From: Candidatus Electronema aureum
GTDB taxonomy: Bacteria > Desulfobacterota > Desulfobulbia > Desulfobulbales > Desulfobulbaceae
Reading direction: 5' to 3'
DNA: 32,000 nt
NCBI GenBank assembly: GCA_004284765.1
Contig: NQJD01000002.1
Span: 90,001 to 122,000 of the forward strand
A program made the translations under genes and the position numbers. Of this stretch, positions 444-25,021 are shown piece by piece (positions within the stretch are counted from its first letter, which is position 1; each line of letters starts with the position of its first letter). The notes under the pieces are model-generated. The model was not told where the DNA came from. It was given only the letters and a program-made list of their open reading frames with translations, and ran no database searches.

Positions 444-3006
444 TAATCTTGTCCAAATATTGATCCCGCTCCTCATCAGGCAGCCATGCGACTTGAAACG
501 GATTGTTGCCTTCAACCAAGCCGTTTGCCGCATTATAGATCGCCTCGCCGGGCCGGGAAAGCAGCCGCGCAGCCGCGTTGTCATCGCTCAGAATCAGGCG
601 GGAATCCGTTTCGCTGCATTGCAAGGCAATTCTGACCGCCATTTGATCAATGGTGCTGCGAGCTAAGGTGTAGGTTCCGGCCAAAGTCTGCGAACCCAAG
701 ATGATATGAACGCCGAAGGCCCGGCCTTGACGCACCAAGCGGTCTAAAATTTGCGAGACCTTGGCAGCGACCGGATCATCTTCTGTGAAAAATTCCTGAA
801 ATTCATCCACAAGCAGGATGATGCGCGGCATGATCTGGCTGGTTTTCCGGCGGTAATTTTTCAAATCGGCAACTTCCGCCTTGCGGAAGAGGTCGCCGCG
901 CCGCTTCAGCAAGGCATCTAAATCTTGCAGAACGCTCAGGCCAAACTCGCGTTCGCTTTCAATGGCGATTACCCGCGCATGAGGCAGAGCATGTGCGGCA
1001 TAGGTTTTGAACTCCACGCCTTTCTTGAAGTCAATCAGGTAGAACTGCACTTCATCAGGGCTGTAGGTGAGCGCCAAATTGACGATGAGGACATGCAGTA
1101 GCGTTGATTTGCCGGAGCCTATTTTGCCAGCAATCAGCGCGTGATGGGATGTTCCTTTGCCCAGCTCAAGAAATTGCACCCGGTTTGCGCCCACCGGGCC
1201 AAGCGGAATGCGGATTTCCTCGGCAGTGCTGCCGCGCTGCCATGCTTCGGGGCTTAGTCCAGCCTTTTCCAAGATTTTTGCAAAGGGAACTTCCACCCGC
1301 ATTGCTGCCACTGCCGCTTTGCCGACCTGACTGATGATGGTGTTGAAATATTCCTGCGCTGGCGGTTCATCCAGCGAGAGCAGGCATTTAAAGTCACGTG
1401 CCCCCCATATTAGCTGATTTTCATTTTCATACGAATGGAAAACTCTAGTATGTCGTCCAATATTTCTGATATCAAATCTATGCGGCATATTTTTTTCACG
1501 ATCGCAAATAATGATGGTGTAGATGCCGCAGCGCGGACCATTTTGGAGAATGCTGATCAAACGGCGCACTGCATCTTCGCTGAAGTTGGCTGGAAAATCA
1601 TTGATGATCAGGAAACGGTACGGTTCCGTCAGCTCGCCTGCATAGGAGTTGAATTCCTCAATGGTTTTGTAAGTGTTGCGCAAATATTTCTGAATGACAT
1701 TCTCAATATGCTCAGTCAGCTCGCCAAGCCGCTGCTCGATATGTCGCGGCTCTGACCATGCTTTTGTTGTGACCAAAGATTCATCGTAATCCGCCAGATG
1801 CAGAAATGCGGCGGCATTTTGACCAAGACCGACAGGATCAATAAAGGTGAAGCGCAGTTTTCCCGGCGGAATTGATGCGGTCAGGCGCAGCAGGAGGGAT
1901 TGAAGCTGCTTGGCGATGAGGTTTCTTTCCTCTCCGTTTATCGAGAAGAGAATTCCTTGCTCAGAAGGAAAGGGCAGCAGAGCGGGCATGGAAAACTGAC
2001 AGTCTTTGATTCTACTTTTGTCTCCATTCCATCGTCCGGTGGTCAGTTCTCCAATGCGAATCATGTCGGGCAGCTTTGATGCGACATTCCAGCTTTGCCA
2101 AAATTCATCATCCCAGCGTGGAGATGAAGTGTCAACAGCTTGCTTGTATGCTGAAATCCTCCGATGCAGTTCTGCTAATTTTGCCTCAAATTCTTTTTGC
2201 GCAGTTTGCCTGATATTTTCGTAATTATCCTCAATCGTTTGAATCCGCTTCTCGTGTTTCTTCTCATTCTCCGCCATTCTCTCATTATAGAGCCGTTCTT
2301 CGTTTTTAATGAGCTGGTCAGCCTTCTGCACGCATTCGTTGTATATTTCTTTTGCCTCTATCGTTATTTGCAAAATATGAGAGTAGTATTTCTTTGGTTT
2401 CAGATAGAAGGTAAATATATAATTAAACTCAATAGATATTGATACAACAAAGGAGAATATTGCCGCTGATAATATCCATAATGTATCGTCGATTCTGTTT
2501 AAGTAGCAAAAAAATTTAGCTATAGTTCCTGTTATTATCCATAAAAAGAAAAATTCTATAAAAAATAGCGCTAATAGACTTTTGACAGTTTTTTTATCAT
2601 TATTAATACACGAGTTTATTTTTCCAGAAAAATCATCTGCTTGATTAAAATATGATTTAAGCGCATCTATAGCAGCTCTATTTTTCTGTACAAATGATTC
2701 TCCTGACGGATATATATTAAATATATCAAAAATATAAGATATTTTTTCTTTTGACTTGCTGCTGCATATAGATAGGTTGTTCATGTATGAAGATAATTCT
2801 CTATTTTTATTATTTATTGCTTGCGTATCTGAATCAAATTGAGATTTAATTTCTTTAGCCGTGTAATTGTAACTATCAGTTGCCTGCTGTTTTTCTTGGT
2901 TGTATCTCCTTTCAACGTCCAGTTTCACCTGATTGTTATCTTTAATAATTTCACCAAATTGTGTCATCAAAACTGTCTGCATTTCATCAAAATTTATCTC
3001 GCTCAT
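238..3006 (-). CDS. Membrane-anchored multi-domain FtsK/SpoIIIE-family ATPase (EssC/EccC-like, T7SS-type)
   Basis: 922-aa ORF with AGGAGG 6 nt upstream of the ATG at 3006. It has two hydrophobic helices (LALFFIEFFFLWIITGTIAKFF and WILSAAIFSFVVSISIEFNYIFTF) followed by a coiled-coil stretch. Next comes a degenerate FtsK-like domain with no Walker A (ILFSINGEERNLIAKQ) and FLIINDF at the Walker B position. A canonical domain follows, with Walker A GKIGSGKST (1102..1128) and Walker B LLVDEFQ (DE at 802..807). The last ~45 codons (238..~380, Arg/Cys/Gly-rich) look like out-of-frame read-through. Confidence 0.85.
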   Translation of the reverse strand: MSEINFDEMQTVLMTQFGEIIKDNNQVKLDVERRYNQEKQQATDSYNYTAKEIKSQFDSDTQAINNKNRELSSYMNNLSICSSKSKEKISYIFDIFNIYPSGESFVQKNRAAIDALKSYFNQADDFSGKINSCINNDKKTVKSLLALFFIEFFFLWIITGTIAKFFCYLNRIDDTLWILSAAIFSFVVSISIEFNYIFTFYLKPKKYYSHILQITIEAKEIYNECVQKADQLIKNEERLYNERMAENEKKHEKRIQTIEDNYENIRQTAQKEFEAKLAELHRRISAYKQAVDTSSPRWDDEFWQSWNVASKLPDMIRIGELTTGRWNGDKSRIKDCQFSMPALLPFPSEQGILFSINGEERNLIAKQLQSLLLRLTASIPPGKLRFTFIDPVGLGQNAAAFLHLADYDESLVTTKAWSEPRHIEQRLGELTEHIENVIQKYLRNTYKTIEEFNSYAGELTEPYRFLIINDFPANFSEDAVRRLISILQNGPRCGIYTIIICDREKNMPHRFDIRNIGRHTRVFHSYENENQLIWGARDFKCLLSLDEPPAQEYFNTIISQVGKAAVAAMRVEVPFAKILEKAGLSPEAWQRGSTAEEIRIPLGPVGANRVQFLELGKGTSHHALIAGKIGSGKSTLLHVLIVNLALTYSPDEVQFYLIDFKKGVEFKTYAAHALPHARVIAIESEREFGLSVLQDLDALLKRRGDLFRKAEVADLKNYRRKTSQIMPRIILLVDEFQEFFTEDDPVAAKVSQILDRLVRQGRAFGVHIILGSQTLAGTYTLARSTIDQMAVRIALQCSETDSRLILSDDNAAARLLSRPGEAIYNAANGLVEGNNPFQVAWLPDEERDQYLDKINALARQQNFAFPQSQIVFEGNAPAASSNYRAAETFFRLAGRADCHQRGDCGAVPAAKRQQSGDCRARR

Positions 3007-3026
3007 TTTAATCCTCCTGTTGGTAT

Positions 3027-3054
3027 GTAGGGGCGAAAAATTTTTCGCCCCTAC
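3027..3054. repeat. 28-nt perfect palindrome GTAGGGGCGAAAAATTTTTCGCCCCTAC between the 78-aa gene and the ATPase gene
   Basis: Read directly: 14-nt arms with no spacer. On the coding (minus) strand it ends 20 nt before the ATPase ATG and just upstream of its AGGAGG. It is not followed by a U-tract. Confidence 0.9.
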
Positions 3055-3063
3055 CGAGTTTGA

Positions 3064-3300
3064 TTAACGCGCATTCCTTCTTATCTGCTCAAAAACATGC
3101 AGAAGATTATCCATTTCTCTCTGCACCAGTCGCACTTGATCAAATAACGGCATCATCACATTTCCGGCAAACTCCTGGCTCACCGGGTCATCCCATTCTG
3201 TTTTCGCCATCTCCCAGCGATGACGCAGCTTTCCCTGCTCTTCATGAAATTCATCAAGCTGCTGCGAAAGCAAAACTACGCATTGATCAAGACTTTCCAT
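3064..3300 (-). CDS. 78-aa helical-hairpin protein with a central W-x-D turn (WXG100-like partner or immunity protein)
   Basis: Start chosen at MESLDQ (ATG 3298..3300), which overlaps the last 14 nt of the upstream 388-aa gene. The longer M at 3360 would sit deep inside that gene. The sequence is helix-biased with TEWDDPVSQEF near the middle, similar to QTWRDQEHQKF in the 90-aa protein. Confidence 0.55.
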   Translation of the reverse strand: MESLDQCVVLLSQQLDEFHEEQGKLRHRWEMAKTEWDDPVSQEFAGNVMMPLFDQVRLVQREMDNLLHVFEQIRRNAR

Positions 3301-4453
3301 GAAAAATAACACCTTCGTGGTAAAAGATGAAATCCTGCTTCCCCTCTGCCAGCTCTGCATTCGCCCTGCTGATTACTTCCGCAACGTTTCCAGAAAACCT
3401 GCCGTTGCTGACAAAATGGAACTCATGAATTTGACCTGTCCTGATCACATTTTTAATCCCTTCAACCTGCTCCTGAAACTCCTTCAGCCTGCCGCTGTAC
3501 GTCCCATGCAAGGCATGTTTGAAATCAACCCCGATCTCTTGCCCGTCAATCCACTGGCCATTCTCATAAAATCGTCGGCAAATCAGCAAATCAGCTTCGA
3601 CAGACCGCCTTTTTCCCGGCAGCTCTTTTGGGTTGAATTTGATTGAAAAATCAAGCCGGTCTGTCTCCGGTTGAATAAACAGCCGCTGCCCGCCGTTGCC
3701 TGCGTTCGAGCCGGAGCGGATCAGCGCAGCCGTGCCCAGCAGCTCATACAGAAAACCGGCAACCGATTTGTTGCGGTTGGCCAGCCGCGATTTCAGGATA
3801 GTTCCTGCCCGCATATCCCGCTGCGGCGAAAACCGCAGCAAACCCAGCGCGTCCGGCGTGACTGATAAAATCAAAGCAACAGTCTGCGACAGCTGCTGAA
3901 GATAGTCAGGGTAGCAGCTTGCGCTGGTGGGATTTTCAGCGGCAATCTGAAGCAGTAGTTCTTTGATCTCTTCTGCCGAAGACGGCTCCTGCGCAGGAAG
4001 AGCCGCCGCGCCACCGTGTTCCGCAGAAGAAAATCCGGCAAAACCAGCTCCGCTTTGCGCATTGACAGCACGGTACGCCTCAAGCTCCATGAACTTCCGC
4101 GCTAAGAACGACTCGGCCTTGGGAATTTCCTCGTGCAAAAAGTGCTGCAACCGGACGGCTTGTTGATGATACTGAGCGGCAGCCTCCTGCGCCTGCCGCC
4201 GCCAATGCAGAACAGCGTTCAGCTCTTCCTCGGCATGACGCAAGTGCTGCCTGTCATTGCGGGAGTTGTCCTGAGCGCGTTCCAGCTCCCGCCGCCCGTG
4301 CCGCTGCCGTTCATCAAGCCATGCTTCCGCCCGCTTGATTTCCCGGTTCACGCGGTCAAGCGTCTGCTGCGCCTCGCTGCGGAATGCCGCCAAACTGCTT
4401 TGCAGCTCCAGCAAAGCCTGAAACGACCGGACATTGGCCTGATTCGCGTTCAT
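3287..4453 (-). CDS. 388-aa modular protein and candidate secreted effector: an N-terminal WXG100-like helical domain, an Ala/Gly/Ser linker, and a ~210-aa C-terminal globular domain
   Basis: The start ATG overlaps the TAA of the upstream gene (TAATG). The N-terminal ~130 aa is heptad-like and helical, with AEAWLDERQ at residue 45. The linker is NAQSGAGFAGFSSAEHGGAAALPAQEPSSAEE. The C-terminal part carries acidic and basic residues spaced like a PD-(D/E)xK core (GFLYELL .. RLDFSI .. VEADLLI .. GVDFKH). This fold assignment is tentative. Confidence 0.7.
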   Translation of the reverse strand: MNANQANVRSFQALLELQSSLAAFRSEAQQTLDRVNREIKRAEAWLDERQRHGRRELERAQDNSRNDRQHLRHAEEELNAVLHWRRQAQEAAAQYHQQAVRLQHFLHEEIPKAESFLARKFMELEAYRAVNAQSGAGFAGFSSAEHGGAAALPAQEPSSAEEIKELLLQIAAENPTSASCYPDYLQQLSQTVALILSVTPDALGLLRFSPQRDMRAGTILKSRLANRNKSVAGFLYELLGTAALIRSGSNAGNGGQRLFIQPETDRLDFSIKFNPKELPGKRRSVEADLLICRRFYENGQWIDGQEIGVDFKHALHGTYSGRLKEFQEQVEGIKNVIRTGQIHEFHFVSNGRFSGNVAEVISRANAELAEGKQDFIFYHEGVIFHGKS

Positions 4454-4725
4454 TATCGCTGATCGATATAGTCGCGGGCGCGTTGAGCCTTTTTCTGAAG
4501 GAAGGGGATATGCTGCTCAGAAATTTGCAAAAACCGCTCAATTTGTTTGACCGTCTGCTGATATTCCTGCGCAAATTTCTGATGCTCCTGATCACGCCAC
4601 GTCTGGCCCAGCGCATTAAACTGCCCGTTGAGCTGCCCCATGCTCTGCCGGAGCTGCATATTGAACTGCTTCAGGTTATGGGAAAAACGGGCCAGCTCTT
4701 CGGGATCAACAATAGCTTGCGGCAT
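4453..4725 (-). CDS. 90-aa WXG100/ESAT-6-like helical hairpin protein (W-x-D variant)
   Basis: Start moved to MPQAIVDPEEL because AGGAGG lies 7 nt upstream of the ATG at 4723..4725. The product is 90 aa and predicted all-helical, with the Trp turn QTWRD at residues 41-45, the position of W-x-G in WXG100 proteins. It is first in an operon that ends with an FtsK-like ATPase. Confidence 0.65.
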   Translation of the reverse strand: MPQAIVDPEELARFSHNLKQFNMQLRQSMGQLNGQFNALGQTWRDQEHQKFAQEYQQTVKQIERFLQISEQHIPFLQKKAQRARDYIDQR

Positions 4726-4769
4726 GGTGAGACCTCCTGTTGTGGTTGCGGTGCCGGTTGTAATTGCCC

Positions 4770-4799
4770 AGCATAACGCGCTGAGAAGCAAGCTGTCAA
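4770..4799 (-). promoter_or_regulatory. Candidate sigma-70 promoter for the T7SS-like operon
   Basis: On the minus strand: TTGACA (4794..4799), 18 nt spacer, TATGCT (4770..4775). It lies about 45 nt upstream of the 90-aa gene start, between that start and the DUF1015 stop. Confidence 0.4.
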
Positions 4800-4816
4800 C
4801 CGGCGCAGATGGTAGC

Positions 4817-6187
4817 TTACAACAAGCCCACCGCCTCATCTAACTTCCGTATCAGCAGGCCGGTGAGGAGCTTCGGATAGAAGAAGGTGGATTTGTGCGG
4901 CATGATGTTGCCGCTATCCGCGACCTTCAGTACCTGTGCCACCTTGGTTGGGTTAAGCAAGAGGAGCAGCGGGGTGTGGCCGTCCTCCACCACGCTCTGC
5001 TTAACTGCCGCATCCAAAGCCTCGTCCGGGTCACTGAGATAGCTAATCAGCTTGCTCGTGGCGCATTGCTCATGGCTGAGACCAAGGCAATGGCTGATCA
5101 GCACCTCAGAGAGAAGCACCACATCTAAATCACGCAGCACTGCTGGTTTATCAGCCAGCAGCGGCCCAGAGATCAGTGCCGCATCCTGAACAACCAGCAA
5201 GAAGGCGCGGTTTTCCCCAGCATGATACACCCCAAAGGCAGGCAGGCCACTGTCTGCGGCAGCTTCGTCCATTCGGTTGAAGGTCTCTGCGATCAGGCTT
5301 TCCCGGCTGCTGTTGCGCACTTCCTCCACCAGCAGGTGCTGCCGCATTCTGTCGGCAAGCTGGTCTGCACTCATCGCGCCTGGCCAGCGCACAAGGCGGT
5401 GCGTGGGCAGAACAGACAGGCCGGGGTCTTCGCAACCGCAGAGGTACATCATGATGAAGTTGCTCGGATGATCGATAGGCAGAGCAGGGTTCGCAGCTAA
5501 AGCACGGCGGCGATACTCCAAGGCAGTGGTGTAACGGTGATGGCCGTCAGCTATATACACCGGCTTATCCACAAAGAACCGCTGCACCTTAGCAATAGCT
5601 GCTGCATCTGTCACCCGCCAGAGGGTGTGCGTGTTGGCATTACCGTCTGTGACCTGAAGGAAAGCTTTGCTCTCCTGCACCTGCTCTAAGGTGCGGATCA
5701 CCTCTTGCTGCGGGTCAGAGTAGATGGAGAATATCTTGCTGAACTGCGCACTACAGGTCTCCATCAGCTTGAGACGGTCGCCAATGACACCGGCAAAGGT
5801 CTTCTCGTGCGGGCGGACAATGCCCTCGCTGAACTCCGCCAGCCCGACCAGACAGACTATGCCTTTGCGGGTCAGCCGTCTGCCGCCGGGGATAGTGTAG
5901 TCGGTGGCGTACAGGTAGATGGCGGGCTGCGCATCGCGGATCAGCACGGCTTCATCCTGCCAAGTAGCAAAGCGGTCGCGGGCTTGCAGATAGCGGCCAT
6001 CGTCCTCAGTCTCACCCTGCGAGGTGTTGCGCAGGTCAAGGTTGATCATCGAGTAGGGGTTCTTCTGGCGCAGCTTCTCGCCGTCTCTGGCAGAAATGAT
6101 GTCGTAGGGAGGAGTGATCACATCCTCCAGCCGGGCAATTTTCTCTTGGTTGTAGCGTACAGCGCGGAACGGGGCAACAGCAGCCAT
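4817..6187 (-). CDS. DUF1015 family protein
   Basis: The 456-aa N-terminus MAAVAPFRAVRYNQEKIARLEDVITPPYDIIS matches the characteristic DUF1015 opening (PF.A.RY ... PPYDVI). Confidence 0.85.
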   Translation of the reverse strand: MAAVAPFRAVRYNQEKIARLEDVITPPYDIISARDGEKLRQKNPYSMINLDLRNTSQGETEDDGRYLQARDRFATWQDEAVLIRDAQPAIYLYATDYTIPGGRRLTRKGIVCLVGLAEFSEGIVRPHEKTFAGVIGDRLKLMETCSAQFSKIFSIYSDPQQEVIRTLEQVQESKAFLQVTDGNANTHTLWRVTDAAAIAKVQRFFVDKPVYIADGHHRYTTALEYRRRALAANPALPIDHPSNFIMMYLCGCEDPGLSVLPTHRLVRWPGAMSADQLADRMRQHLLVEEVRNSSRESLIAETFNRMDEAAADSGLPAFGVYHAGENRAFLLVVQDAALISGPLLADKPAVLRDLDVVLLSEVLISHCLGLSHEQCATSKLISYLSDPDEALDAAVKQSVVEDGHTPLLLLLNPTKVAQVLKVADSGNIMPHKSTFFYPKLLTGLLIRKLDEAVGLL

Positions 6188-6283
6188 AATATTTCTCCCA
6201 GCGGATAAGGCAAAAGGGTATAACCGGATTTATGTCCGGCACGTTGAGTAGAACTCGATTTCAGGCAGGCCAGCACAATGCGT

Positions 6284-7174
6284 TCATGCGGTGATCTCTG
6301 TGCCGCTGCCTTTGTGGGTGAAGATTTCTAACAGGATGGCGTGTTCCTGCCGTCCGTCGATGATGTGGGCCTTATTCACCCCGCCGTTGATGGCTGAGGC
6401 GCAGCAGCGCAGCTTGGGAATCATGCCGCCCTTGATCACGCTGTCGCTGATGAGCTGCTCGATGGAGGAAACCGCGATGGAGGAAATGAGCTGTCCTTGG
6501 CTGTCCTTCACTCCTTCCACGTCAGTCAGCAAGATCAGCTTGCTTGCCTTCAGCTCGGCAGCGATAGCACCAGCCACCAAATCAGCATTGATATTATACG
6601 CCTGACCGTCCTCACCCACGCCCACAGGCGCGATCACCGGAATGAAGTCCTTTGAGGCGAGAGTGGTAAGGATTTCCGGGTTGATGTGCGTTACTTCACC
6701 CACCCGACCCAAGTCGATCAGCTCTGGCGGTGCATTCTCTGTCTCTGGTTTGCCGAGTATTTTCATCTTCTTCGCTTGGACTAAATCACCGTCCCGCCCT
6801 GATAAACCTACCGCTCTGCCGCCGCAGTGGTTGATCAGGCCAACGATCTCTTTGTTGACCTTGCCCACCAGCACCATCTCGACCACATCCATAGTCGGGC
6901 CGTCTGTGACCCGCATCCCCTGCACATAGCTGGAAGTGATCTGCATCTTCTTCAGGAATTCGTTGATCTGCGGGCCGCCGCCGTGTACCACCACCGGATT
7001 AATCCCGATGTACTTGAGCAGGATGATATCTAAGGCAAAGTTCTTCTTCAACTCCTCATCCACCATCGCGTGGCCACCGTACTTGATCACTACGGTTTTC
7101 CCGTTGAACTCACGAAGATAGGGCAAGGATTCAATCAGTACCTTTGCCTTGGTAATTTCGTTCTGCATGATCAT
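6284..7174 (-). CDS. argB: Acetylglutamate kinase
   Basis: The motifs [22 protein letters not shown] and AYNINAD are typical of the amino-acid kinase family ArgB. The start may be at 7168 (MQNEI). Confidence 0.95.
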
Positions 7175-7353
7175 GCTCTCCTTAGTTAAATAGGGTGCGT
7201 TCTGGCTACCTCATCAGGTAGGCACGTTCGCGTCATCGACAGTTTTTCGTCTGCGAACAGGGAGATAGAAAAACTTTACATTTTCCGGTGAACCCTGTAT
7301 CCTGTACGCTCCTGCGTAGAAGCAGACGTTTGTGCAACACCATCTTATAAAAC

Positions 7354-7914
7354 ATGATTCAGATAGGGGCAACAATGTATTTTTTCCCATTATCCCTTCG
7401 GCAACCGGCAACGGCAGCCTTGTTTAGTCTGCTGATCCTTTTGAACGCCTCTGCCTCCTTTGCCAAGGACGAGGCACCGATCAATATCGAAGCCGACCGC
7501 ATGATTTCCCAAGAGAACAAGAACACGGTCGTTTTCATCGGGAACGTCGAAGCGAGTCAAGGCAAAGTCACCATCCGCGCTGATGAAATGACTGTGCAAT
7601 ACGAGGAAAGTGCATCGAACAAAGGTGGTAAAGCAGCGGACAAACCTGAAAAGGGCAAGTCCAGCAAGGTGAAAAGTCTGATCTGTATCGGCAAAGTGGA
7701 AGTCACTCAAGGAGACTGGCTCGGCACCGGCGAAAAGATGGAGTATGTTGCCGCCGAGCGCAAGGTGGTTCTCAGCGGCAATGCCAAAGCCTTGCAAGAT
7801 AAGAACATGGTTTTCGGCAAAACTATCACCTATTATTTAGACGAAAAACGCTCTGTGGTTGAGAACGGCAGCGGAGAGACAACAGGACGGGTGAAGGCGG
7901 TCATTCAGCAATAG
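7354..7914 (+). CDS. lptA: LPS export periplasmic protein LptA (OstA-like)
   Basis: It has a signal-peptide-like N-terminus (ALFSLLILLNASASFA) and the OstA pattern INIEADRM..FIGNVEASQG..VVLSGNAKALQDKNMVFGKTITYYL. It sits directly upstream of lptB. The start could be the internal M at 7375. Confidence 0.8.
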   Translation: MIQIGATMYFFPLSLRQPATAALFSLLILLNASASFAKDEAPINIEADRMISQENKNTVVFIGNVEASQGKVTIRADEMTVQYEESASNKGGKAADKPEKGKSSKVKSLICIGKVEVTQGDWLGTGEKMEYVAAERKVVLSGNAKALQDKNMVFGKTITYYLDEKRSVVENGSGETTGRVKAVIQQ

Positions 7915-19160: not shown

Positions 19161-19496
19161 ATGGAAATAACACAGGAGCAATACGAGAAGATAGCCGACA
19201 GCTTGCCTCGTCAGAGAGGCAATATCACAATTGACAACCTCACGATGCTGAACGCCATGCTGCATGTCCTTGAACTTGGATACAAATGGCGTGAGATTCC
19301 AAGCATTTTTGGCAATTGGCATAGCATCTACACCCGTATGAGCAGATGGAGCAAAAACAGTGTGCTTGACCGGATTTTCGCACGATTGCAGCATGAGCAG
19401 ATACTGCATGTCAACACGGCGGCTTTTTCACTCGACAGCACGGTCATCAAAGTTCATCCTGACGGAACTGGGGCATTAGACCTCTTGCATAAGTAA
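19161..19496 (+). pseudogene. IS5-family (IS427/IS1031-like, DUF4096-type) transposase N-terminal fragment
   Basis: LTMLNAMLHVLELGYKWREIPSIFGNWHSIYTRMSRWSKNSVLDRIF...DSTVIKVH matches the conserved N-terminal region of this transposase group. The ORF stops just where the DDE domain should begin. Confidence 0.75.
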
Positions 19497-19519
19497 AATC
19501 TATATGCTAACGATGGTGA

Positions 19520-19975
19520 ATGAAATACGAAACAGTGCATAGCCTCAGCGAGGAAGATTTTAAACGATCAACAGGAGTTCAGCGTTCGACCTTCGCCAAG
19601 ATGCTTGAGGTTGTCGAGCAAGGGCTGCGCAATTTTGGCAGACCGCCAAAATTGGGCCGGGCCGATCAGCTCCTGCTGACCTTGATGTATTGGCTCGAAT
19701 ATCGGACTGAATTTCACATTGGCCTTGCCTATGGCATCAGCGAGTCGGCGGTGTGCCGGACGATTAAAAAGATTGAAAACGCGCTCATTAAGTCGGAGCA
19801 ATTTCACCTACCCAATAAAAAAGCACTTCAGTCCGACAGCATAAAATTTGAAATTACCCTCGTTGATGCCACAGAACAGCCGATTGAACGCCCAAAAAAA
19901 AACAGCGGCAGCATTACAGCGGCAAAAAAAAGTGCCATACTCAGAAAGCGCAGATAATTTCAATGGGTAAACCCC
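19520..19975 (+). pseudogene. IS5/Harbinger-like (HTH_Tnp_4 plus DDE_Tnp_4) transposase fragment, frameshifted and 3'-truncated
   Basis: The HTH region is LLLTLMYWLEYRTEFHIGLAYGISESAVCRTIKKI, followed by the first catalytic segment LVDATEQPIERPKK. After the A9 run (19894..19902) the expected continuation QRQHYSGKKKCHTQKAQII appears only in another frame. The remainder of the DDE domain is absent. Confidence 0.7.
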
Positions 19976-20073: not shown

Positions 20074-20550
20074 ATGAATATTGACATGCTGGTAAAACAT
20101 CTTCAGAACCCCTTTGCCTTGGCCGGAATCGCCTTCCTGCTTGCGGCGGCGTTCTGGTTTTTTCTGAGCAAAGGACGGAAAAGCAACAAGGCTGCATCAG
20201 GGCGGCTGGACGCAACGCAGGTGATTTATCTTCTCAGCCTGCTGGCTATGCTTGTCCTTGCCGTGCTGATGTGGAACGACCGTGCCATTTCCATGACGCT
20301 GCTCGGCAGTCTGCTGGGCAGCGTCGTCAGCGGCCTGCCGCTTTTGAAGCCTGCGAAGGAAGACAAGTCTGTTCTCAGCACGGTTGGCGAGCAAAGCCCC
20401 TCAGTCCGCAGCGGCGGCAAGGTGACAATCAGCTACGGCGGCGCGGTGTCCGGCGGGAAAAAGGCAGGTGCTGGGCAGGCAGTCACGCAGGGCGGACAAA
20501 GCCCGGCGGTCGAGGCGAAGAAAGATGTGGAAATCAAGTATGAGAAATAA
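20074..20550 (+). CDS. 158-aa predicted membrane protein with a C-terminal tail carrying two QSP..V.I.Y motifs
   Basis: The start is set at MNIDML (ATG 20074) because the upstream 37 codons run into the IS remnant. There are three hydrophobic helices (FALAGIAFLLAAAFWFFL, VIYLLSLLAMLVLAVLMW, ISMTLLGSLLGSVVSGLPLL). The tail contains EQSPSVRSGGKVTISYGG and GGQSPAVEAKKDVEIKYEK. Confidence 0.6.
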   Translation: MNIDMLVKHLQNPFALAGIAFLLAAAFWFFLSKGRKSNKAASGRLDATQVIYLLSLLAMLVLAVLMWNDRAISMTLLGSLLGSVVSGLPLLKPAKEDKSVLSTVGEQSPSVRSGGKVTISYGGAVSGGKKAGAGQAVTQGGQSPAVEAKKDVEIKYEK

Positions 20551-20636
20551 GGCGGCTGGCGTGACGAGGCAGTCGCCGTCTATGAGAAGGTATATTTTTT
20601 CTATTTCCTCATAGGCCGCGCCTGTCTTTTAATAGG

Positions 20637-20684
20637 AAAAATAGATGAGGAAATAGACGCGGCCTATCTGCTCATCTATTTTTT
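20637..20684. terminator. Candidate bidirectional Rho-independent terminator
   Basis: A 13-bp perfect stem AAAAATAGATGAG (20637..20649) / CTCATCTATTTTT (20671..20683) with a 21-nt partly self-paired loop. An A-run lies on one side and a T-run on the other. Confidence 0.55.
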
Positions 20685-20730
20685 GGATTAAAAGGTATAA
20701 AAAATATACTTTCCGGCAGGAGGGGGCGAT

Positions 20731-22408
20731 ATGCAGATGACAACGGGCAATCAGTCGCCGGTGATTGAGGCGGGCGGCAATGTCACGGTCAATTACGGCC
20801 TCGACGAGGAGCGCGTCAAAGCCATGCTGGAGCGGCAGCAGGAGGAGCTGTTCAGGAAGCTGCGCGAGTCCGGCTTTGCGGCGGATGACGGCGAACGCCG
20901 CCTGCTGGAGCAGCAGTTGCAGGCGGTCTCGGCGAAACTGGCCGACATCGAGCGGAGCTACGAGGAGGAGCTGGCGCGGCCAACTTCCCGAAGCCCAGAT
21001 TGAGAACGCGCAAGCCAATTTGCGGCAGGGCGACAAGGACGCGGCCAAATCAGTCTTTCACGGGGTGCTTGACAAGGAAGGCGCGTCAGTCGCGCTGGCC
21101 GCGTATCAGCTTGGGCAGATGGCGGAGGGCGATTTGAATTACGCCGAGGCCATGCGCATGTACAAAAAGGCGGTTGTGCTGGAGGAGGACAAGCCGGAGT
21201 ATCTGCTTGCCGCTGGGAAAATGGCCCGCAAACTTGCGGAGTTCAAGCAGGCGCAGGAATGGCTGGAGCATCTGCGGGAGATCAGGGAGGCGGAGGGAGA
21301 TGGTGCTAACCTCGGCAACGTTCTTAACGAGTTAGCTTTAGTTTATAAAGATCAATTTCAGTTGGCAAAGGCAGATTTTCTGCATCGACGTGCTCTTGAT
21401 GTCAGAGAAAAGATATTTGGCGAAGAACATCAGGATACAGCAGAGAGTTTAAACGATCTTGCCTTTTTATGTAGAGAGCAGTGCAGATATGAGGAGGCTG
21501 AGTCGTTATTTAAACGTGCCGTTGATACCAGAGAGAAAATATTTGGTAAAGATCACCCTGATGTAGCAGAGAGCTTGAATAATCTGGCTGGACTGTATCG
21601 AACGCAGGCGCGTTACACGGAAGCAGAGTTGCTGTATCAACGTTCTTTGGAAATTAAAGAGAAAACGTTAGTACCTCATCATCCTTCCATAGCGACAAGT
21701 TTGAACAATATAGCTATGTTCTATAAAAACAAAGGAAAATATTTTGATGCAGAATTACTCTACCAGCGTGCTCTTTCCATAAAAGAAAAATCAATAGGTG
21801 AAGCCCATCCCTCTTTCGCGATCACATTAAATAATCTTGTAAATCTTTATAGAGATCAGGGTAGATATATCGAAGCTGAACCGTTATATTATCGTGCTCT
21901 TAACGTTAGAGAGAAAATATTTGGAAGAGACCATCAGCATATAGCTGGCAGCTACGAGGGCATCGCCACATTATACAAAAATCAAGGAAAGTGCGCTGAA
22001 GCAGAACATCTTTACCAGAAAGCCATTGATATAAAAGAAAGACTTCTTGGCAAAGATCATCTTTCTCTTGCTGTAACAATATGCAACCTTGCTGATCTTT
22101 ATCAAAATCAAGAAATGTATCAAGAGGCTGAAAAGTTAAATAGCCGTGCTCTTTATATTCGAGAAGAAATCCTTGGAAAGGAGCATCCCTCTGTGGCAAA
22201 CAGTCTAAACAATTTCGCTAATCTCTATAGATTACAAAAAAGATACGCGGAAGCAGAACCACTGTATCAACGTGCCCTATCCATTATGAGGGAAAAATTT
22301 CCCGGCGGCCATCCAAAGGTTGATCGCTATCAGAAAGACTACGACGAGCTGAAACAGAAGATGGCGGAGCAGCAAGCCGCCGCCACTCAAGAGAAAAATC
22401 ATGTTTAA
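20731..22408 (+). CDS. TPR protein with eight kinesin-light-chain-type 42-aa repeats and a ~85-aa N-terminal domain. The reading frame is interrupted near 20970..20985.
   Basis: GGAGGGGG lies upstream of the ATG at 20731. The N-terminal frame (MQMTTGNQSPVIEAGGNVTVNYGLDEERVKAML...YEEELAR) stops at 21003. The TPR frame (..QLPEAQIENAQANLRQGDKDAAKSVF..) is the +1 frame and is open to 22408. The repeats follow the pattern AESLNNLAGLYRTQARYTEAELLYQRSLEIKEKTLVPHHPSI, eight times. Confidence 0.7.
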
Positions 22409-22649: not shown

Positions 22650-23450
22650 TTATGCAAGTGGGTCAGTTAGCTTATCCGTAAGGGCAGAAATCTCCCGATC
22701 TATGTTCTTTATATCCGCTACTATCGGTTTTGCTGTTTCGGGAGATTTTTCGAGAGCCAGCCTTAATATACTCATCCAATTAAGGTTGTTTCTTGCTCTT
22801 GCCGCTTCGATTTGATCAATAGGATGCGGATATTCTTTCTCATTATCTTGCGGCCATTGAATGAATACAGAGAATTTTTCAAAAACTTTATCATATTTTT
22901 TTTGAATTTCTTTGTAACCAGCAAGCCAATCCTCTTTCGTTAAACCGAGGAGGTGAACACCTATGCGCGCGCCATTTTTAAAAATATTTGAACGTAGGAA
23001 TCCCTCCTCCTGAAACAAAAATTTTTTATGCAATTTTACAACTGCATCGTTTCCTTCGATTACTTCGCAATTTAATTTTTCTACCCCTAATGAGTTAAAA
23101 ATAAAATTAATCAACGAATACTCAAGAGCTGACCCAAGCCCTCCCCATACGTTTTCCGTTACATAATACCCCCAATCCGCTTTTTTATGAAGGCGATCAA
23201 TTGCATTGACACTTATAACGCCTAATGGCTTATGTACTTCGTCTAAAACAGCAAAAACAATTTTTCTGTCGTCTTGCTTGAGTCGGTTTATCCAACCTAA
23301 ATGTTCATTTGCTTCGATAATGTGGTCTGTGTACATCCATTTTCGTACATTTTCCTCGTTTCTAATTTCTCTGACCTTCATCTGTGATTCTGTATCGAGA
23401 AAGGTCAAGAGAACAAGATTGATTACCTTTGGATTTACTGAATTCATCAT
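22650..23450 (-). CDS. GNAT-family N-acetyltransferase (PseH-like N-terminal domain) with a ~85-aa C-terminal extension
   Basis: AAGGAGA lies upstream of ATGATG at 23450. The layout LLTFLDTESQMKVREIRNEENVRKWMYT..EHLGWINRL..VFAVL..LGVISVNAID....ADWGYYV..LGVEKLNCEVIEGNDAVVKLHKKFLFQEEG resembles PseH-type GNATs. The gene is about 35% GC, clearly below the surrounding sequence. Confidence 0.7.
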   Translation of the reverse strand: MMNSVNPKVINLVLLTFLDTESQMKVREIRNEENVRKWMYTDHIIEANEHLGWINRLKQDDRKIVFAVLDEVHKPLGVISVNAIDRLHKKADWGYYVTENVWGGLGSALEYSLINFIFNSLGVEKLNCEVIEGNDAVVKLHKKFLFQEEGFLRSNIFKNGARIGVHLLGLTKEDWLAGYKEIQKKYDKVFEKFSVFIQWPQDNEKEYPHPIDQIEAARARNNLNWMSILRLALEKSPETAKPIVADIKNIDREISALTDKLTDPLA

Positions 23451-23564
23451 AAGTCTCCTTTCTGTACTCATTTTGTAAAATTTAAATGCGTAATTTCTAG
23501 CCTAAGATGCATTGACATTGATACAACAATTCCCCGCTTTATGGTAATAGCTACCCATGAGTGA

Positions 23565-23924
23565 TCAATGAAACAAAATACAATCGTTGTAGTGATTAAT
23601 AAATCTCCAAACATATGCAGTTAAATTTTCAATGCTTCTCGAAAACGACAATGTCTTCCTGATTAATACCGACACTCTTTGCCTGAATGTTAAATTAATC
23701 CTTTCGATATGACTTTTTTTTCCGCTTCCTTTACTGACAACGCTGTGTCTTTCTGCAGGAAATACTTTTCCGTAAGAGGTCAAGCCGTCTGTGAAAAATA
23801 TTCCGTTCTTTTTGCAGTCTTCAGAAAGTGACTTCCACAGGGCAGCAGCTTCGGTATCGTCTCTTTTTCCGACAAAAGTCCACATCTCGTCGGCTTCTAT
23901 AAAAATTTTTCCATCTTTAGACAT
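23565..23924 (-). pseudogene. IS1-family transposase (InsB-like) C-terminal fragment
   Basis: ADEMWTFVGK, FFTDGLTSYGKVFPAERH and IERINLTFRQRVSVLIRKTLSFSRSIENL match the conserved IS1 InsB C-terminal half. The N-terminal half and InsA are missing, and an internal segment after VGK appears to be deleted. Confidence 0.75.
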
Positions 23925-23969: not shown

Positions 23970-25021
23970 GAATTCAACTTGTAAGTGCAACTTTTGTCTG
24001 GTTGTAAAAAAAGTGAGTTGTGGTAGTATGATGGCTCATTTCTTACCGCCAAGCAAGAGGAGCACGGATGAAAAACTACACACAAGTCACCGAAGCAGAA
24101 CGTAATCAAATTTACGCGTTAAAGCAAGCAGGGCATCAGAAATCAGCGATAGCCTTGCAGCTTGGCCGACACAGATCAACTATCGGTCGAGAATTGCAGC
24201 GTAATTGCGGTGAACGCGGCTGGCCCAAGCAGGCACAACAACTGTCTATTCAACGCCGCCAAGAAAAGGCAGAGCGGAGAATTTCTGAAGAAATATGGCC
24301 TATTGTCAATGATCTTCTCCGCGAAGATTGGAGTCCTGAACAAATCAGCGGCTGGCTATCCGCAACCAAAAATCTTCAGGTCAGTCATGAACGAATCTAT
24401 CAACATGTTGCCCATGACAAGCAGCACGGAGGAACGTTACATCTCCATCTACGAAAGAAGAAAACGTTATGGCAGCACTGACCGCCGGGGCAAGATTAAA
24501 AACCGGGTCTCGATAGATCATCGCCCCAGCATCGTTGAAGAACGTTCTCGGATTGGTGATTGGGAGGTGGATACGGTGATCGGTCGTCGGGGAGGAGCTG
24601 TTCTTGTCACCTTGGCAGAACGGAAGACGCGAGTTATCGCTCTTGCCCCGAATAAACGGGCAGATAGCGTCAATCAGGCACTTGTCCAAGCCCTTCTTCC
24701 CTGCCAAGACCAAGTTCATACCCTAACCTGCGACAACGGCAAGGAATTTGCCTTGCATCAGGAGTTCGCAAGCACTCTTCAGGCAGACTGCTTCTTCGCG
24801 CATCCGTATCAGGCTTGGCAACGCGCGGCTCAACGAAAATACGAACGGACTTATACGGCAATACCTCCCAAAAGGAGCGAGCTTTGACACGCTGGACACG
24901 CAGGATGTCAAAGCTATTATGGAAAAGCTCAACAACAGGCCTCGAAAATCTCTTGGATTTAAAACACCAAAAGAGCTATTTTTGGGAGACTACTTAACGG
25001 TTGCACTTGGAACTTGAATTC
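23970..25021 (+). mobile_element. IS30-family insertion sequence (about 1.05 kb) with recognisable terminal inverted repeats and an inactivated transposase
   Basis: IRL is GAATTCAACTTGTAAGTGCAAC (23970..23991). The reverse complement of IRR (25000..25021) is GAATTCAAGTTCCAAGTGCAAC, giving 19/22 identity. No clear target-site duplication was seen. Confidence 0.85.
24068..25017 (+). pseudogene. IS30-family transposase with at least two frameshifts
   Basis: Three consecutive frames together give a full IS30 transposase. The first frame holds the HTH region (ERNQIYALKQAGHQKSAIALQLGRHRSTIGRELQRN). The second holds IGDWEVDTVIG and TCDNGKEF. The third holds NENTNGLIRQYLPKG..MEKLNNRPRKSLGFKTP. The breaks are near 24455..24480 and 24820..24840. 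Confidence 0.85.

What the first reader, a model, noticed from the sequence alone, without database searches (positions are those of the whole stretch)
20074..22408. Adjacent membrane protein and KLC-type TPR protein share a short QSP-x-[VI]-x-[AS]-GG-x-VT-[IV]-x-YG motif
The motif occurs twice in the cytoplasmic or extracytoplasmic tail of the 158-aa membrane protein: EQSPSVRSGGKVTISYGG at 20386..20439 and GGQSPAVEAKKDVEIKYEK at about 20491..20541. It occurs once at the extreme N-terminus of the TPR protein: GNQSPVIEAGGNVTVNYG at 20746..20799. At the DNA level the copies differ at most synonymous positions, so the similarity is maintained at the protein level and is not a recent duplication. 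Inference: the strand-like motifs could mediate association between the two proteins or co-assembly. Kinesin-light-chain-type TPR arrays are frequent sensor or scaffold modules of bacterial conflict and signalling systems, but no NTPase or effector domain is present here.
Basis: partly seen in the sequence, partly recalled or inferred. Interest (0 to 1): 0.65.

Follow-up and report, generated by a model that had tools for sequence, protein, structure and literature searches.

The report
Membrane anchor and TPR partner pair
A small membrane protein and the neighbouring TPR scaffold protein share a short hairpin-like motif that marks a conserved, undescribed two-gene module found in cable bacteria and other bacteria, although in this genome a 38-base deletion has broken the TPR gene.

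Summary
The three motif copies are real and conserved. They are the only matches in 64,000 six-frame residues of the window.

A 38-nt deletion between GCGCGGC microhomologies puts the motif-bearing 90-aa N-terminal ORF out of frame with the TPR array. Orthologues are intact.

The pair belongs to an undescribed two-gene module, with no Pfam, NCBIfam or PADLOC model. Its parts are:
- **Anchor:** a ~150-180-aa membrane protein with an N-terminal WIEHLxHPLVLxGF box, 2-3 hydrophobic segments, and a tail with usually two T-x-G-x-QSP...V-x-I-x-Y motifs.
- **Partner:** a protein built as QSP motif, long helices, then a KLC-type TPR array.

A partner lay immediately downstream in all 17 loci with readable downstream DNA, often overlapping by 4-11 nt. 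In an eighteenth locus three partners lie next to the anchor on the other strand. Single-chain fusions exist.

In 7 loci, anchors with three hydrophobic segments pair with partners lacking a signal peptide. In 12 loci, 2-TM or 1-TM anchors pair with partners carrying a signal peptide or lipobox. The tail and the partner's N-terminus are therefore predicted to lie on the same side of the membrane.

Best reading: a two-part membrane-tethered TPR scaffold coupled through the hairpins, in the manner of EAD adaptors. The interaction is untested and the biological role is unknown.

The parts
20074..20550 (+). Gene for the 158-aa membrane anchor protein, intact. Start ATG preceded by AGAGGA.
   Evidence: ORF and translation. 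39 homologues at 59-100% identity, named sources all Ca. Electronema. Wider family found by an HMM search of 1.84 billion representatives. No Pfam, NCBIfam or PADLOC family.
20113..20169 (+). Hydrophobic segment 1 (residues 14-32, FALAGIAFLLAAAFWFFLS), predicted TM1.
   Evidence: Kyte-Doolittle 19-residue mean of 2.23. AF2 helix 13-36.
20215..20271 (+). Hydrophobic segment 2 (residues 48-66), predicted TM2. The preceding loop SKGRKSNKAASGRLDATQ has 5 K+R and is predicted to be cytoplasmic.
   Evidence: Kyte-Doolittle mean 2.36. Loop charges. AF2 helix 47-66.
20287..20343 (+). Hydrophobic segment 3 (residues 72-90, ISMTLLGSLLGSVVSGLPL). Weaker. It is present only in the cable-bacterial type of anchor and is predicted to be TM3, which would put the tail in the cytoplasm.
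   Evidence: Kyte-Doolittle mean 1.63. AF2 helix 70-91. Its presence covaries with absence of a signal peptide on the partner.
20380..20439 (+). QSP motif copy 1 of the anchor tail (TVGEQSPSVRSGGKVTISYG).
   Evidence: Nearly invariant in 31 homologues. AF2 strands 111-113 and 117-121, i.e. a hairpin, at pLDDT about 50.
20485..20544 (+). QSP motif copy 2 of the anchor tail (TQGGQSPAVEAKKDVEIKYE).
   Evidence: AF2 strands 146-148 and 152-156.
20560..20735 (+). Structured intergenic element just upstream of the TPR gene, with nested inverted repeats. The base of the fold includes the GGAGGGGG ribosome-binding site and the ATG.
   Evidence: Inverted repeats. RNA fold -63.4 kcal/mol, z = -5.06. Conserved in the window, L001, L002, L003 and L011, absent in L004. 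No Rfam family.
20731..21003 (+). 5' fragment of the TPR partner gene: a 90-aa ORF (QSP motif plus start of the long helices) ending at a premature TGA caused by the frameshift.
   Evidence: Homologues read through as ...SYEEELARRKAADAALAQLRGQLPEAQIE....
20740..20799 (+). QSP motif copy 3 (TTGNQSPVIEAGGNVTVNYG), the N-terminus of the ancestral TPR partner.
   Evidence: Conserved in orthologues P0059-P0069. In the AF2 model of intact orthologue P0061 residues 1-24 have pLDDT below 50.
20974..20980 (+). Junction of a 38-nt deletion, within the GCGCGGC microhomology, that frameshifts the TPR gene.
   Evidence: DNA alignment with L001, L003 and L004.
20975..22408 (+). Remainder of the TPR partner gene in the next reading frame: helical linker plus KLC-type TPR array, open to the stop at 22406..22408.
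   Evidence: Pfam TPR_12 300 bits, TPR_10 298 bits, TPR_NPHP3 261 bits. The model of intact orthologue P0061 has pLDDT 89 and is all-alpha. Foldseek matches KLC1/2 and APPBP2.

Best explanation
The two genes are the halves of a conserved, so far undescribed two-gene module that builds a membrane-tethered TPR scaffold.
- Gene 1 encodes a small polytopic anchor. It has an N-terminal WIEHLxHPLVLxGF-type box, hydrophobic helices, and a flexible tail with two ~20-residue QSP beta-hairpin motifs.
- Gene 2 encodes a protein with one QSP hairpin, then long helices (probable coiled coil), then a kinesin-light-chain-type TPR array that would bind other proteins or peptides.

Inferred mechanism: the hairpins have one hydrophobic face (V/I-x-A and V-x-I-x-Y). 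Those of the anchor tail and of the partner's N-terminus pack together by beta-sheet co-assembly and so attach the TPR platform to the membrane. This would work like a homotypic coupling adaptor.

In most lineages the assembly is predicted to be periplasmic: a 2-TM anchor with the tail outside, and a partner with a signal peptide or lipobox. In cable bacteria a third hydrophobic helix in the anchor and loss of the signal peptide from the partner would place both on the cytoplasmic side.

In this window the module is crippled. A 38-nt slippage deletion has frameshifted the partner gene, while the anchor gene is intact.

Shown: the motif and its conservation, the deletion, gene adjacency, the fusions, and the covariation of architectures. 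Inferred: topology, hairpin-hairpin binding, and the scaffold role.
For: - Motif reality and conservation.
- Deletion.
- Adjacency in Electronema: L001, L003 and L004 have an intact pair, L002 has the anchor plus a remnant of the partner, and L005 is cut by the contig end.
- Adjacency in distant relatives: L007, L008, L010, L011, L013-L021 all have a QSP-helix-TPR gene directly downstream, overlapping by 4-11 nt or within a few nt in the loci measured. All the partners scanned are TPR proteins.
- Fusions in one chain: P0202 and P0191 (TM module, QSP motif(s), coiled coil, TPR), P0136, and P0086 from the same genome as the window.
- Covariation: 7 loci with a 3-segment anchor have a partner without a signal peptide. 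12 loci with a 2-TM or 1-TM anchor have a partner with a signal peptide or lipobox. There are no exceptions. The positive-inside pattern of loop charges supports N-out, loop 1-in.
- L013: 136 nt are 95% identical between the anchor 3' end and the partner 5' end, so the motif cassette is exchangeable.
- AF2: the tail motifs are predicted as hairpins. The partner's N-terminal motif is free in the monomer and is followed by a 44-residue helix and a confident TPR solenoid.
- The same logic (copies in adjacent gene products, direct fusions elsewhere, close relationship of adjacent copies) was used to propose homotypic coupling for EADs (PMC7159879, read).
Against: - No interaction test or complex prediction could be run.
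- The AF2 model of the anchor has low confidence (mean pLDDT 54, motifs about 46-54).
- Topology rests on hydropathy, loop charges and signal peptides judged by eye. No dedicated predictor was available. Segment 3 is only weakly hydrophobic (1.54-2.09).
- The 3-segment anchors all come from cable-bacterial or closely related sequences, so the covariation may reflect a single evolutionary event.
- Across lineages partner motifs resemble each other (STGDQSPVI) more than they resemble the adjacent anchor motifs (QSPA[VI]). The copies are therefore old paralogues rather than generally homogenised.
- Two of five Electronema genomes (this window and L002) have lost the partner but keep the anchor, so the anchor may have a role of its own.
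- Some fused paralogues lack the motif altogether (P0086).
Confidence: 0.55

Rival explanations
1. The motif is shared only because of common descent, through duplication or gene conversion across the gene junction or fission of a fused ancestor. Its job is not mutual binding. Instead each copy contacts the same third target, such as the membrane surface or an envelope component, so both proteins are brought to the same place independently.
For: - The motif is always membrane-proximal: right after the last TM helix, right after a signal peptide or lipobox, or at the extreme N-terminus.
- L013 shows that sequence does move between the two genes.
- Fused forms exist.
- Anchor-type and partner-type motifs each have their own conserved flavour.
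Against: - A third target would have to exist on both faces of the membrane to serve the periplasmic and the cytoplasmic versions.
- Strict adjacency and overlapping genes point to stoichiometric co-production of two subunits.
- The anchor carries two copies and the partner one in most lineages, a fixed arrangement that suits a joint fold.
Confidence: 0.18
2. The motif is a short linear ligand for the concave groove of the KLC-type TPR array. The two tail copies recruit TPR proteins, and the partner's own N-terminal copy is an autoinhibitory pseudo-ligand.
For: - The TPR array is 40-44% identical to KLC1/2 TPR domains. The closest solved structures are TPR domains crystallised with bound peptides or degrons (KLC1/2, APPBP2).
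- The motif regions are flexible in both models.
Against: - AF2 does not dock residues 1-24 on the TPR array of the intact orthologue (pLDDT below 50, no contacts implied).
- The motif has the alternating pattern of an amphipathic hairpin rather than an acidic or aromatic linear motif.
- Partner proteins with very different TPR arrays keep the same motif: a 297-aa protein with two TPR_12 units (L008), a PDZ-containing 918-aa protein (L016), and a TPR_19-type protein (L007).
Confidence: 0.1
3. The pair is a conflict (defence or abortive-infection) module. The TPR protein senses an invader and the small membrane protein is the effector that damages the membrane. The shared motif plays the adaptor role that EADs play in NTPase-centred systems.
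For: - In Electronema the pair sits at a different place in each genome. In the window it lies among IS fragments, and in L001 it lies next to a PIN-like and antitoxin-like pair judged by eye.
- One anchor relative carries an N-terminal EAD11 domain (PF19964, E = 4e-17) and lies beside three KLC-type TPR genes.
- A distant relative of the TM module is fused to a NACHT NTPase (41 bits against a cut-off of 26.7).
- KLC-type TPR arrays are common in such systems (one search lists many NB-ARC, CHAT and TIR fusions).
Against: - No PADLOC system model matches. The only hit is a generic TPR model.
- There is no NTPase, nuclease, protease or other effector domain in any of the 19 loci.
- In most lineages the TPR protein is predicted to be exported, which is unusual for an intracellular invader sensor.
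- Outside Electronema, neighbouring genes are ordinary housekeeping genes.
- The NACHT link rests on 30% identity over mostly hydrophobic residues.
Confidence: 0.15
4. The similarity is a chance match of low-complexity G/S/K-rich sequence.
For: The motif is short, and the tail is rich in G, S and K.
Against: - BLASTP E = 9e-7 and 7e-4.
- 3 hits within 420 nt, against 0 elsewhere in the window and 0 in 86,092 residues of other TPR proteins.
- Q, P, V and Y are invariant across 27 motif variants.
- The motif recurs in both gene products in distant lineages.
Confidence: 0.01

Closest known systems
Effector-associated domains (EADs) of NTPase-centred conflict systems (Kaur, Burroughs, Iyer, Aravind 2020, eLife; PMC7159879)
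   Same: The architectural logic is the same. A small non-enzymatic element sits at the terminus of a repeat-containing core protein and again in the product of the adjacent gene. The two partners are directly fused in other genomes, and in at least one locus (L013) the adjacent copies are nearly identical. That pattern led to the proposal of homotypic coupling.
   Different: - The QSP element is a ~20-residue predicted beta-hairpin, not a folded alpha or alpha+beta domain.
- No EAD Pfam model matches the window proteins.
- There is no NTPase core and no enzymatic effector.
- In most lineages the element is predicted to be extracytoplasmic.
- In one relative (P0194) the QSP tail coexists with a true EAD11, so the two are distinct.
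Kinesin light chain (KLC1/KLC2)
   Same: An N-terminal coiled coil is followed by a TPR_12-type array. The TPR array of the intact orthologue is 40-44% identical to KLC TPR domains, with Foldseek E of 1e-11 to 1e-10. The TPR array probably binds short peptides.
   Different: This protein is bacterial. It has an N-terminal hairpin motif and a dedicated membrane anchor partner. It has about 9-10 TPR pairs instead of 6. No motor partner is present. It is a homologue at the repeat level only.
CpoB/YbgF of the Tol-Pal system
   Same: The layout signal peptide, coiled coil, TPR domain acting at the inner-membrane/periplasm interface resembles the exported partner proteins (L008, L015 and others).
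   Different: The tol_pal_ybgF model scores only 20.4 bits against a cut-off of 90.1. The TPR type differs, there is no Tol-Pal gene context, and CpoB has no QSP motif or dedicated anchor.
FxSxx-COOH system TPR proteins and NPHP3-type TPR arrays
   Same: These are the best NCBIfam and Pfam whole-array matches: NF040586 at 146.9 bits and PF24885 at 260.6 bits.
   Different: NF040586 is below its 300-bit cut-off and matches only the repeats. The window has no NB-ARC domain and no FxSxx-COOH context.
Bacterial NLR-like (NACHT) proteins with N-terminal transmembrane effector modules
   Same: A distant relative of the anchor's 2-TM module (YL-x-HP-[LM]-VL-x-GF) sits at the N-terminus of a NACHT protein in L024.
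   Different: The similarity is weak (30% over 88 mostly hydrophobic residues). L024 has no QSP motif, and the window has no NTPase.

Membership tests
KLC-type TPR array (Pfam TPR_12 / TPR_10 / TPR_NPHP3) | Repeated 42-residue TPR_12/TPR_10 units scoring above the Pfam gathering thresholds | tested here: met
   TPR_12 300.3 bits (cut-off 30.1), TPR_10 298 bits (27.5), TPR_NPHP3 260.6 bits (100), for window 20984-22405.
KLC-type TPR array (Pfam TPR_12 / TPR_10 / TPR_NPHP3) | All-alpha superhelical fold similar to solved KLC TPR domains | tested here: met
   The AF2 model of intact orthologue P0061 has pLDDT 89.1. Foldseek matches KLC1/2 TPR at 36-44% identity, E of 1e-11 to 1e-10.
KLC-type TPR array (Pfam TPR_12 / TPR_10 / TPR_NPHP3) | Intact open reading frame in this window | tested here: not met
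   A 38-nt deletion splits the gene into a 90-aa ORF and an out-of-frame TPR ORF.
Effector-associated domains (EAD1-EAD11 and others) | Sequence match to an EAD family model | tested here: not met
   No EAD hit for the window proteins in Pfam. EAD11 is found only in the distant relative P0194, as a separate domain.
Effector-associated domains (EAD1-EAD11 and others) | Same small element at the terminus of a core protein and in the adjacent gene product, with direct fusions elsewhere | tested here: met
   Adjacent copies in 19 loci. Fusions P0202, P0191, P0136. Near-identical adjacent copies in L013.
Effector-associated domains (EAD1-EAD11 and others) | Association with an NTPase-centred core (vWA-MoxR, STAND, GTPase) and an enzymatic or other effector | tested here: not met
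   No such domain in the window pair or in the partner genes of the related loci. The only exception is a distant NACHT fusion in L024.
Known anti-phage defence systems (PADLOC-DB 2.0) | Match of the component proteins to system-specific models | tested here: not met
   The anchor and the N-terminal ORF have no hit. The TPR part matches only the generic model PDLC01169 'TPR'.
FxSxx-COOH system TPR protein (NF040586) | Score above the curated cut-off of 300 bits | tested here: not met
   146.9 bits.
CpoB/YbgF (TIGR02795) | Score above the curated cut-off of 90.1 bits | tested here: not met
   20.4 bits.
Proposed new module: WIEHL-box anchor with QSP tail, plus QSP-helix-TPR partner | Anchor with a conserved N-terminal box, 2-3 hydrophobic helices and a tail with QSP motifs | tested here: met
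   Window protein. Alignments A1 and A6. The N-terminal box is degenerate in the window (LVKHLQNPFALAGI).
Proposed new module: WIEHL-box anchor with QSP tail, plus QSP-helix-TPR partner | Adjacent downstream gene for a protein built as QSP motif, long helices, TPR array | tested here: met
   Present in the window as a frameshifted gene. Present in every related locus with readable downstream DNA.
Proposed new module: WIEHL-box anchor with QSP tail, plus QSP-helix-TPR partner | Physical association of the two proteins through the motifs | not testable with these tools
   Only single-chain structure prediction was available, and there is no experimental data.

The most novel reading that the evidence does not exclude
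The QSP hairpins are pieces of a split beta-structure, two from the anchor and one or more from each partner chain, that forms only when the two proteins meet. The whole module was moved as a unit from the periplasmic to the cytoplasmic face of the membrane in cable bacteria. This happened through two matching changes: gain of a third transmembrane helix in the anchor and loss of the signal peptide from the TPR partner. Such a coordinated compartment switch of a two-protein assembly would be direct evolutionary evidence that the hairpins must meet.
Probability: 0.35. Interest if true: 0.7.

Novelty: new variant of a known kind. Interest (0 to 1): 0.55.

Why it matters
If the reading is right, the shared motif defines an uncharacterised protein-coupling element and a conserved two-gene module. 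The module is a membrane anchor plus a TPR platform, and it has no entry in Pfam, NCBIfam or PADLOC. It occurs in cable bacteria, where the family is expanded into many fused paralogues, in a Gammaproteobacteria MAG, and in many unassigned metagenome contigs.

It would extend the 'same small element in adjacent gene products' principle, known from EADs of conflict systems, to a ~20-residue hairpin that appears to work on either side of the membrane. The apparent matched switch of anchor topology and partner export signal gives a clear, testable prediction.

For annotating this genome, the practical result is that the TPR gene is a pseudogene and the 547-aa ORF at 20765..22408 is not a real protein.

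Tried and rejected
- **Motif-only database search.** The domain contexts of single motif copies could therefore not be surveyed. The whole-anchor profile was used instead.
- **Large repeat proteins in that profile search.** P0183, P0185, P0188, P0197, P0201 and P0210 had up to 15 matched stretches. They look like HYR/Ig-like T/V-rich repeat proteins (judged by eye, not scanned) and lack the QSP pattern, so I rejected them as spurious.
- **Locus searches with broad anchor alignments.** A four-sequence alignment worked.
- **AF2 of the anchor.** Confidence was low (pLDDT 54), so only secondary structure was used and no fold search was run on it.
- **Cis-docking of the N-terminal motif on the TPR array.** Not supported: pLDDT is below 50 for residues 1-24.
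- **Family searches.** Pfam, NCBIfam and PADLOC gave nothing specific for the anchor or for the motif-bearing ORF. The weak Flg_hook, DUF5134, SetB and DrmD hits are far below their cut-offs.
- **Rfam.** No family matched the structured intergenic element.
- **Literature.** A search for cable bacteria plus tetratricopeptide found only TPR genes in pilA clusters of Ca. Electrothrix (PMC10580974). I could not tell whether these are the same genes.
- **Complex prediction.** Not possible with the single-chain tool, and chimeric inputs are not accepted.
Full report
**1. What is in the window**

The region contains a 158-aa ORF at 20074..20550 (+). Downstream there are two overlapping-frame ORFs: 20731..21003 (90 aa) and 20765..22408 (547 aa).

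The 158-aa protein has:
- three hydrophobic segments, at residues 14-32, 48-66 and 72-90, with Kyte-Doolittle means of 2.23, 2.36 and 1.63;
- a G/S/K-rich tail with two copies of T-x-G-x-QSP-x-[VI]-x(5)-V-x-I-x-Y, at 20380..20439 and 20485..20544.

The third copy (20740..20799) starts four residues into the 90-aa ORF.

The similarity is well beyond chance.
- BLASTP aligns the third copy to tail copies 1 and 2 with E = 9e-7 and 7e-4.
- A pattern for the motif occurs three times in the 64,000 six-frame residues of the window, all within this stretch. It occurs 0 times in 86,092 residues of 108 other KLC-type TPR proteins.
- The copies are about 52% identical in DNA. Only about half of the residues shared between a tail copy and the TPR-side copy use the same codon, so in this genome they are old.

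**2. The TPR gene is broken here**

The motif-bearing ORF stops at 21001..21003, and the TPR array is in the next frame. Homologues read ...SYEEELARRKAADAALAQLRGQLPEAQIE... without interruption.

DNA alignment with three orthologous loci shows a 38-nt deletion in the window between two GCGCGGC repeats, with the junction at 20974..20980. This looks like a slippage deletion, not a homopolymer error. Downstream of it the TPR frame is still open, so the event is probably recent.

The surroundings are full of decayed mobile elements:
- IS5-type fragments at 19161..19957;
- an IS1 fragment at 23565..23924;
- a frameshifted IS30-like gene at 24068..24887.

**3. Organism and close relatives**

- The named homologues of the anchor are from Candidatus Electronema, the freshwater cable bacteria. 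The window's own protein sits on a 2.94-Mb contig.
- In 31 homologues both tail motifs are nearly invariant.
- In the species-representative genomes the anchor gene occurs once per genome, in five genomes.
- An intact partner gene follows in L001, L003 and L004. L004 is Ca. Electronema halotolerans, where the partner P0059 has 530 aa. L002 keeps only an N-terminal remnant with the motif. L005 ends at the contig edge.
- The pair lies at a different chromosomal place in each genome, and in Electronema the two genes are 180-900 nt apart.
- Partner orthologues all begin M-x-x-[ST]-[TRW]-G-[DN]-QSPVI-x-A-x-G-[ND]-V-[ST]-V-x-YG.

**4. The module is much wider than cable bacteria**

A profile of the anchor searched against 1.84 billion representative proteins returned 36 hits.

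About two dozen of them are small membrane proteins of roughly 80-180 aa, built as:
- a conserved N-terminal box W-I-E-H-L-x-H-P-L-V-L-x-G-F;
- two hydrophobic helices separated by a K/R-rich loop;
- a tail that, in the full-length members, carries two copies of T-x-G-x-QSP-A-[IV]-x-S-G-x-D-V-x-I-x-Y-G.

The large proteins in that hit list are T/V-rich repeat proteins that look HYR/Ig-like. They lack the motif and were set aside.

None of these proteins matches a Pfam, NCBIfam or PADLOC family.

I fetched the DNA around 10 of them and 8 more loci from metagenomes.
- Wherever downstream sequence exists (L007, L008, L010, L011, L013-L021), the next gene overlaps the anchor gene by 4-11 nt or follows within a few nt in the loci measured.
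- That gene encodes [signal peptide or nothing], a QSP motif, long helices, then TPR repeats.
- Pfam confirms TPR arrays in all the partners scanned. One partner also has a PDZ domain.
- L008 comes from a Gammaproteobacteria MAG.
- P0204 from Rhodopila carries a full QSP motif and further QSP-like copies in front of TPR and SH3b-like regions.

**5. Fusions**

Several proteins combine both halves in one chain.
- P0202 and P0191 have the WIxxLQHPLVL box, three hydrophobic helices, QSP motif(s), coiled coil and TPR.
- P0136 has three helices, hairpin-like repeats, coiled coil and TPR. Cable bacteria also hold a large set of 580-690-aa paralogues with three helices, coiled coil and TPR but no motif. 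One of these, P0086, is from the same genome as the window.

Such Rosetta-stone fusions are standard evidence that the separate proteins work together.

**6. Same-side rule**

The anchors fall into two types (alignment A6).
- **Two-helix anchors.** They have an acidic N-tail, a K/R-rich loop 1 and a neutral or acidic region after helix 2. By the positive-inside rule this gives N-out, C-out, with the tail in the periplasm. All 11 of them (L007, L008, L010, L013, L015-L021) pair with a partner that starts with a classical signal peptide or a lipobox. Examples are MRIKRFTLLLFSIVSTTPVVA/ETT...FSFPAIA/ETH and LLSAC.
- **The EAD11 anchor P0194.** Its order is EAD11 domain, one TM helix, then two QSP motifs, so the tail is also outside. 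It lies beside three KLC-type TPR genes whose products all have signal peptides and QSP-like motifs.
- **Three-segment anchors.** These are the window, L001-L004, L011/L012 and L014. They have a short loop 2 and K-rich sequence after segment 3, which predicts the tail inside. All 7 pair with a partner that has no signal peptide and no room for one: in the window an in-frame stop lies 30 nt upstream of the ATG.

That is 19 loci without an exception. The caveats are:
- signal peptides were judged by eye;
- segment 3 is weakly hydrophobic;
- the three-segment forms are all cable-bacterial or close to them, so this may be one evolutionary event.

It is nevertheless what one expects if the tail and the partner's N-terminus must meet.

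**7. Structure**

- **Anchor.** AF2 with alignment A1 gives low confidence (pLDDT 54). It predicts three helices and, for each motif, a strand-turn-strand hairpin at residues 111-113/117-121 and 146-148/152-156.
- **Intact partner.** AF2 of orthologue P0061 is confident (pLDDT 89.1, pTM 0.78). It shows helix 26-46, a 44-residue helix 53-96, then a continuous TPR solenoid. Residues 1-24, the motif, are unstructured with pLDDT below 50.
- The motif is therefore not predicted to fold back on its own TPR array. This fits a segment that folds on binding something else.
- Foldseek places the array next to KLC1/KLC2 (36-44% identity) and APPBP2. Many of those entries are complexes with bound peptides or degrons.

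**8. Exchange between the two genes**

In L013 a 136-nt stretch is 95% identical between the anchor gene (5308..5443) and the partner gene (5628..5763). It covers the linker and second motif of the anchor and the N-terminal region of the partner. The cassette is thus interchangeable.

In general, however, partner motifs share features with each other across lineages (STGDQSP-V-I), and anchor motifs do likewise (QSP-A-[VI]). The two kinds are old paralogues rather than continually homogenised copies.

**9. How it most likely works**

- **Shown:** a conserved, usually translationally coupled gene pair; a shared, strongly conserved motif next to the membrane-anchoring element in both products; natural fusions; covariation of anchor type and export signal.
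- **Inferred:** the amphipathic hairpins of the tail (two) and of the partner (one per chain, with the long helix probably making dimers or trimers) assemble into a common beta-structure. This ties the TPR platform to the membrane. The TPR array then binds a still unknown client.

This is the logic by which EADs were proposed to be homotypic coupling adaptors (PMC7159879). However, the element is not an EAD by sequence, size or context.

The biological role is open.
- Hints towards a conflict system: one EAD11-fused anchor, a distant NACHT fusion of the TM module in L024, and the island-like, mobile-element-rich settings in Electronema.
- Against a conflict system: no PADLOC system match, no enzymatic effector in any locus, and predicted export of the TPR protein in most lineages.

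In this window the partner is a pseudogene, and L002 has lost it too, while the anchor is intact in both. The anchor may therefore have a function of its own, or it may serve the fused paralogues.

**10. Verdict**

- The interpretation (association through the motif) is supported by comparative evidence but unproven.
- Nothing in the family libraries I searched, and neither of my two literature searches, describes the anchor family, the motif or the module.
- I rate it a new variant of a known kind (adaptor-coupled two-protein assemblies, membrane-tethered TPR scaffolds), of moderate interest. The apparent matched switch of membrane side is the most intriguing point.

Noticed in passing
window 20560..20735: The spacer between the two genes is a highly structured element with nested inverted repeats. 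The RNA fold is -63.4 kcal/mol, z = -5.06, and it pairs the ribosome-binding site and ATG of the TPR gene. It is conserved at high identity in the window, L001, L002, L003 and the more distant L011, and absent in Ca. Electronema halotolerans (L004). No Rfam family matches. It could be a translational control element or a small mobile repeat.
   Followed up: partly
window 19161..19957, 23565..23924, 24068..24887: The pair is embedded in mobile-element debris: two IS5-type fragments (DUF4096, HTH_Tnp_4), an IS1 transposase fragment on the minus strand, and an IS30-like gene split into two frames (HTH_38 and rve).
   Followed up: partly
window 22650..23471 (-): A 273-aa GNAT acetyltransferase passes the NCBIfam PseH model for pseudaminic acid biosynthesis N-acetyltransferase (137 bits, cut-off 93). 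It lies in a low-GC stretch (0.37-0.42) directly after the TPR gene.
   Followed up: partly
L013 5308..5443 and 5628..5763: A 136-nt stretch is 95% identical between the 3' part of the anchor gene and the 5' part of the partner gene. This indicates a recent duplication or gene conversion of the linker-plus-motif cassette.
   Followed up: yes
L006 8001..8744 (P0194) and 2031..7792 (-): An anchor relative has the order EAD11 domain, one TM helix, two QSP motifs. It lies next to three KLC-type TPR genes. Each of their products has a signal peptide, two QSP-like motifs separated by a helical region, and then coiled coil and TPR_12 repeats.
   Followed up: partly
L024 610..2082: A distant relative of the anchor's 2-TM module (YL-x-HP-[LM]-VL-x-GF) occurs twice in tandem ORFs. 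In the second it is fused to a NACHT NTPase domain (41 bits, cut-off 26.7).
   Followed up: partly
proteins P0073, P0080-P0096: Cable bacteria hold many fused paralogues (three helices, coiled coil, TPR). Several gene calls extend upstream into a shared translated sequence (…LLHVEKLLRKKR…RRDIFFAVPPRLENN…). This suggests another conserved DNA element in front of these genes.
   Followed up: no
L001 4454..5165 and 6786..7467; L003 4454..4804: In two Electronema genomes small ORFs are inserted between the anchor and partner genes. In L001 an antitoxin-like ORF plus a PIN-like ORF (judged by eye) follow the partner. There the island seems to lie between what look like two carboxylase subunit genes.
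   Followed up: no
window 2001..3000: This stretch has markedly low GC (0.335, against about 0.50-0.58 for its neighbours). I did not examine it.
   Followed up: no
L018 666..1562: The partner gene of this metagenome locus is also split into two frames after about 100 codons. This is a second case of a disrupted partner next to an intact anchor, though it may be a sequencing error.
   Followed up: no
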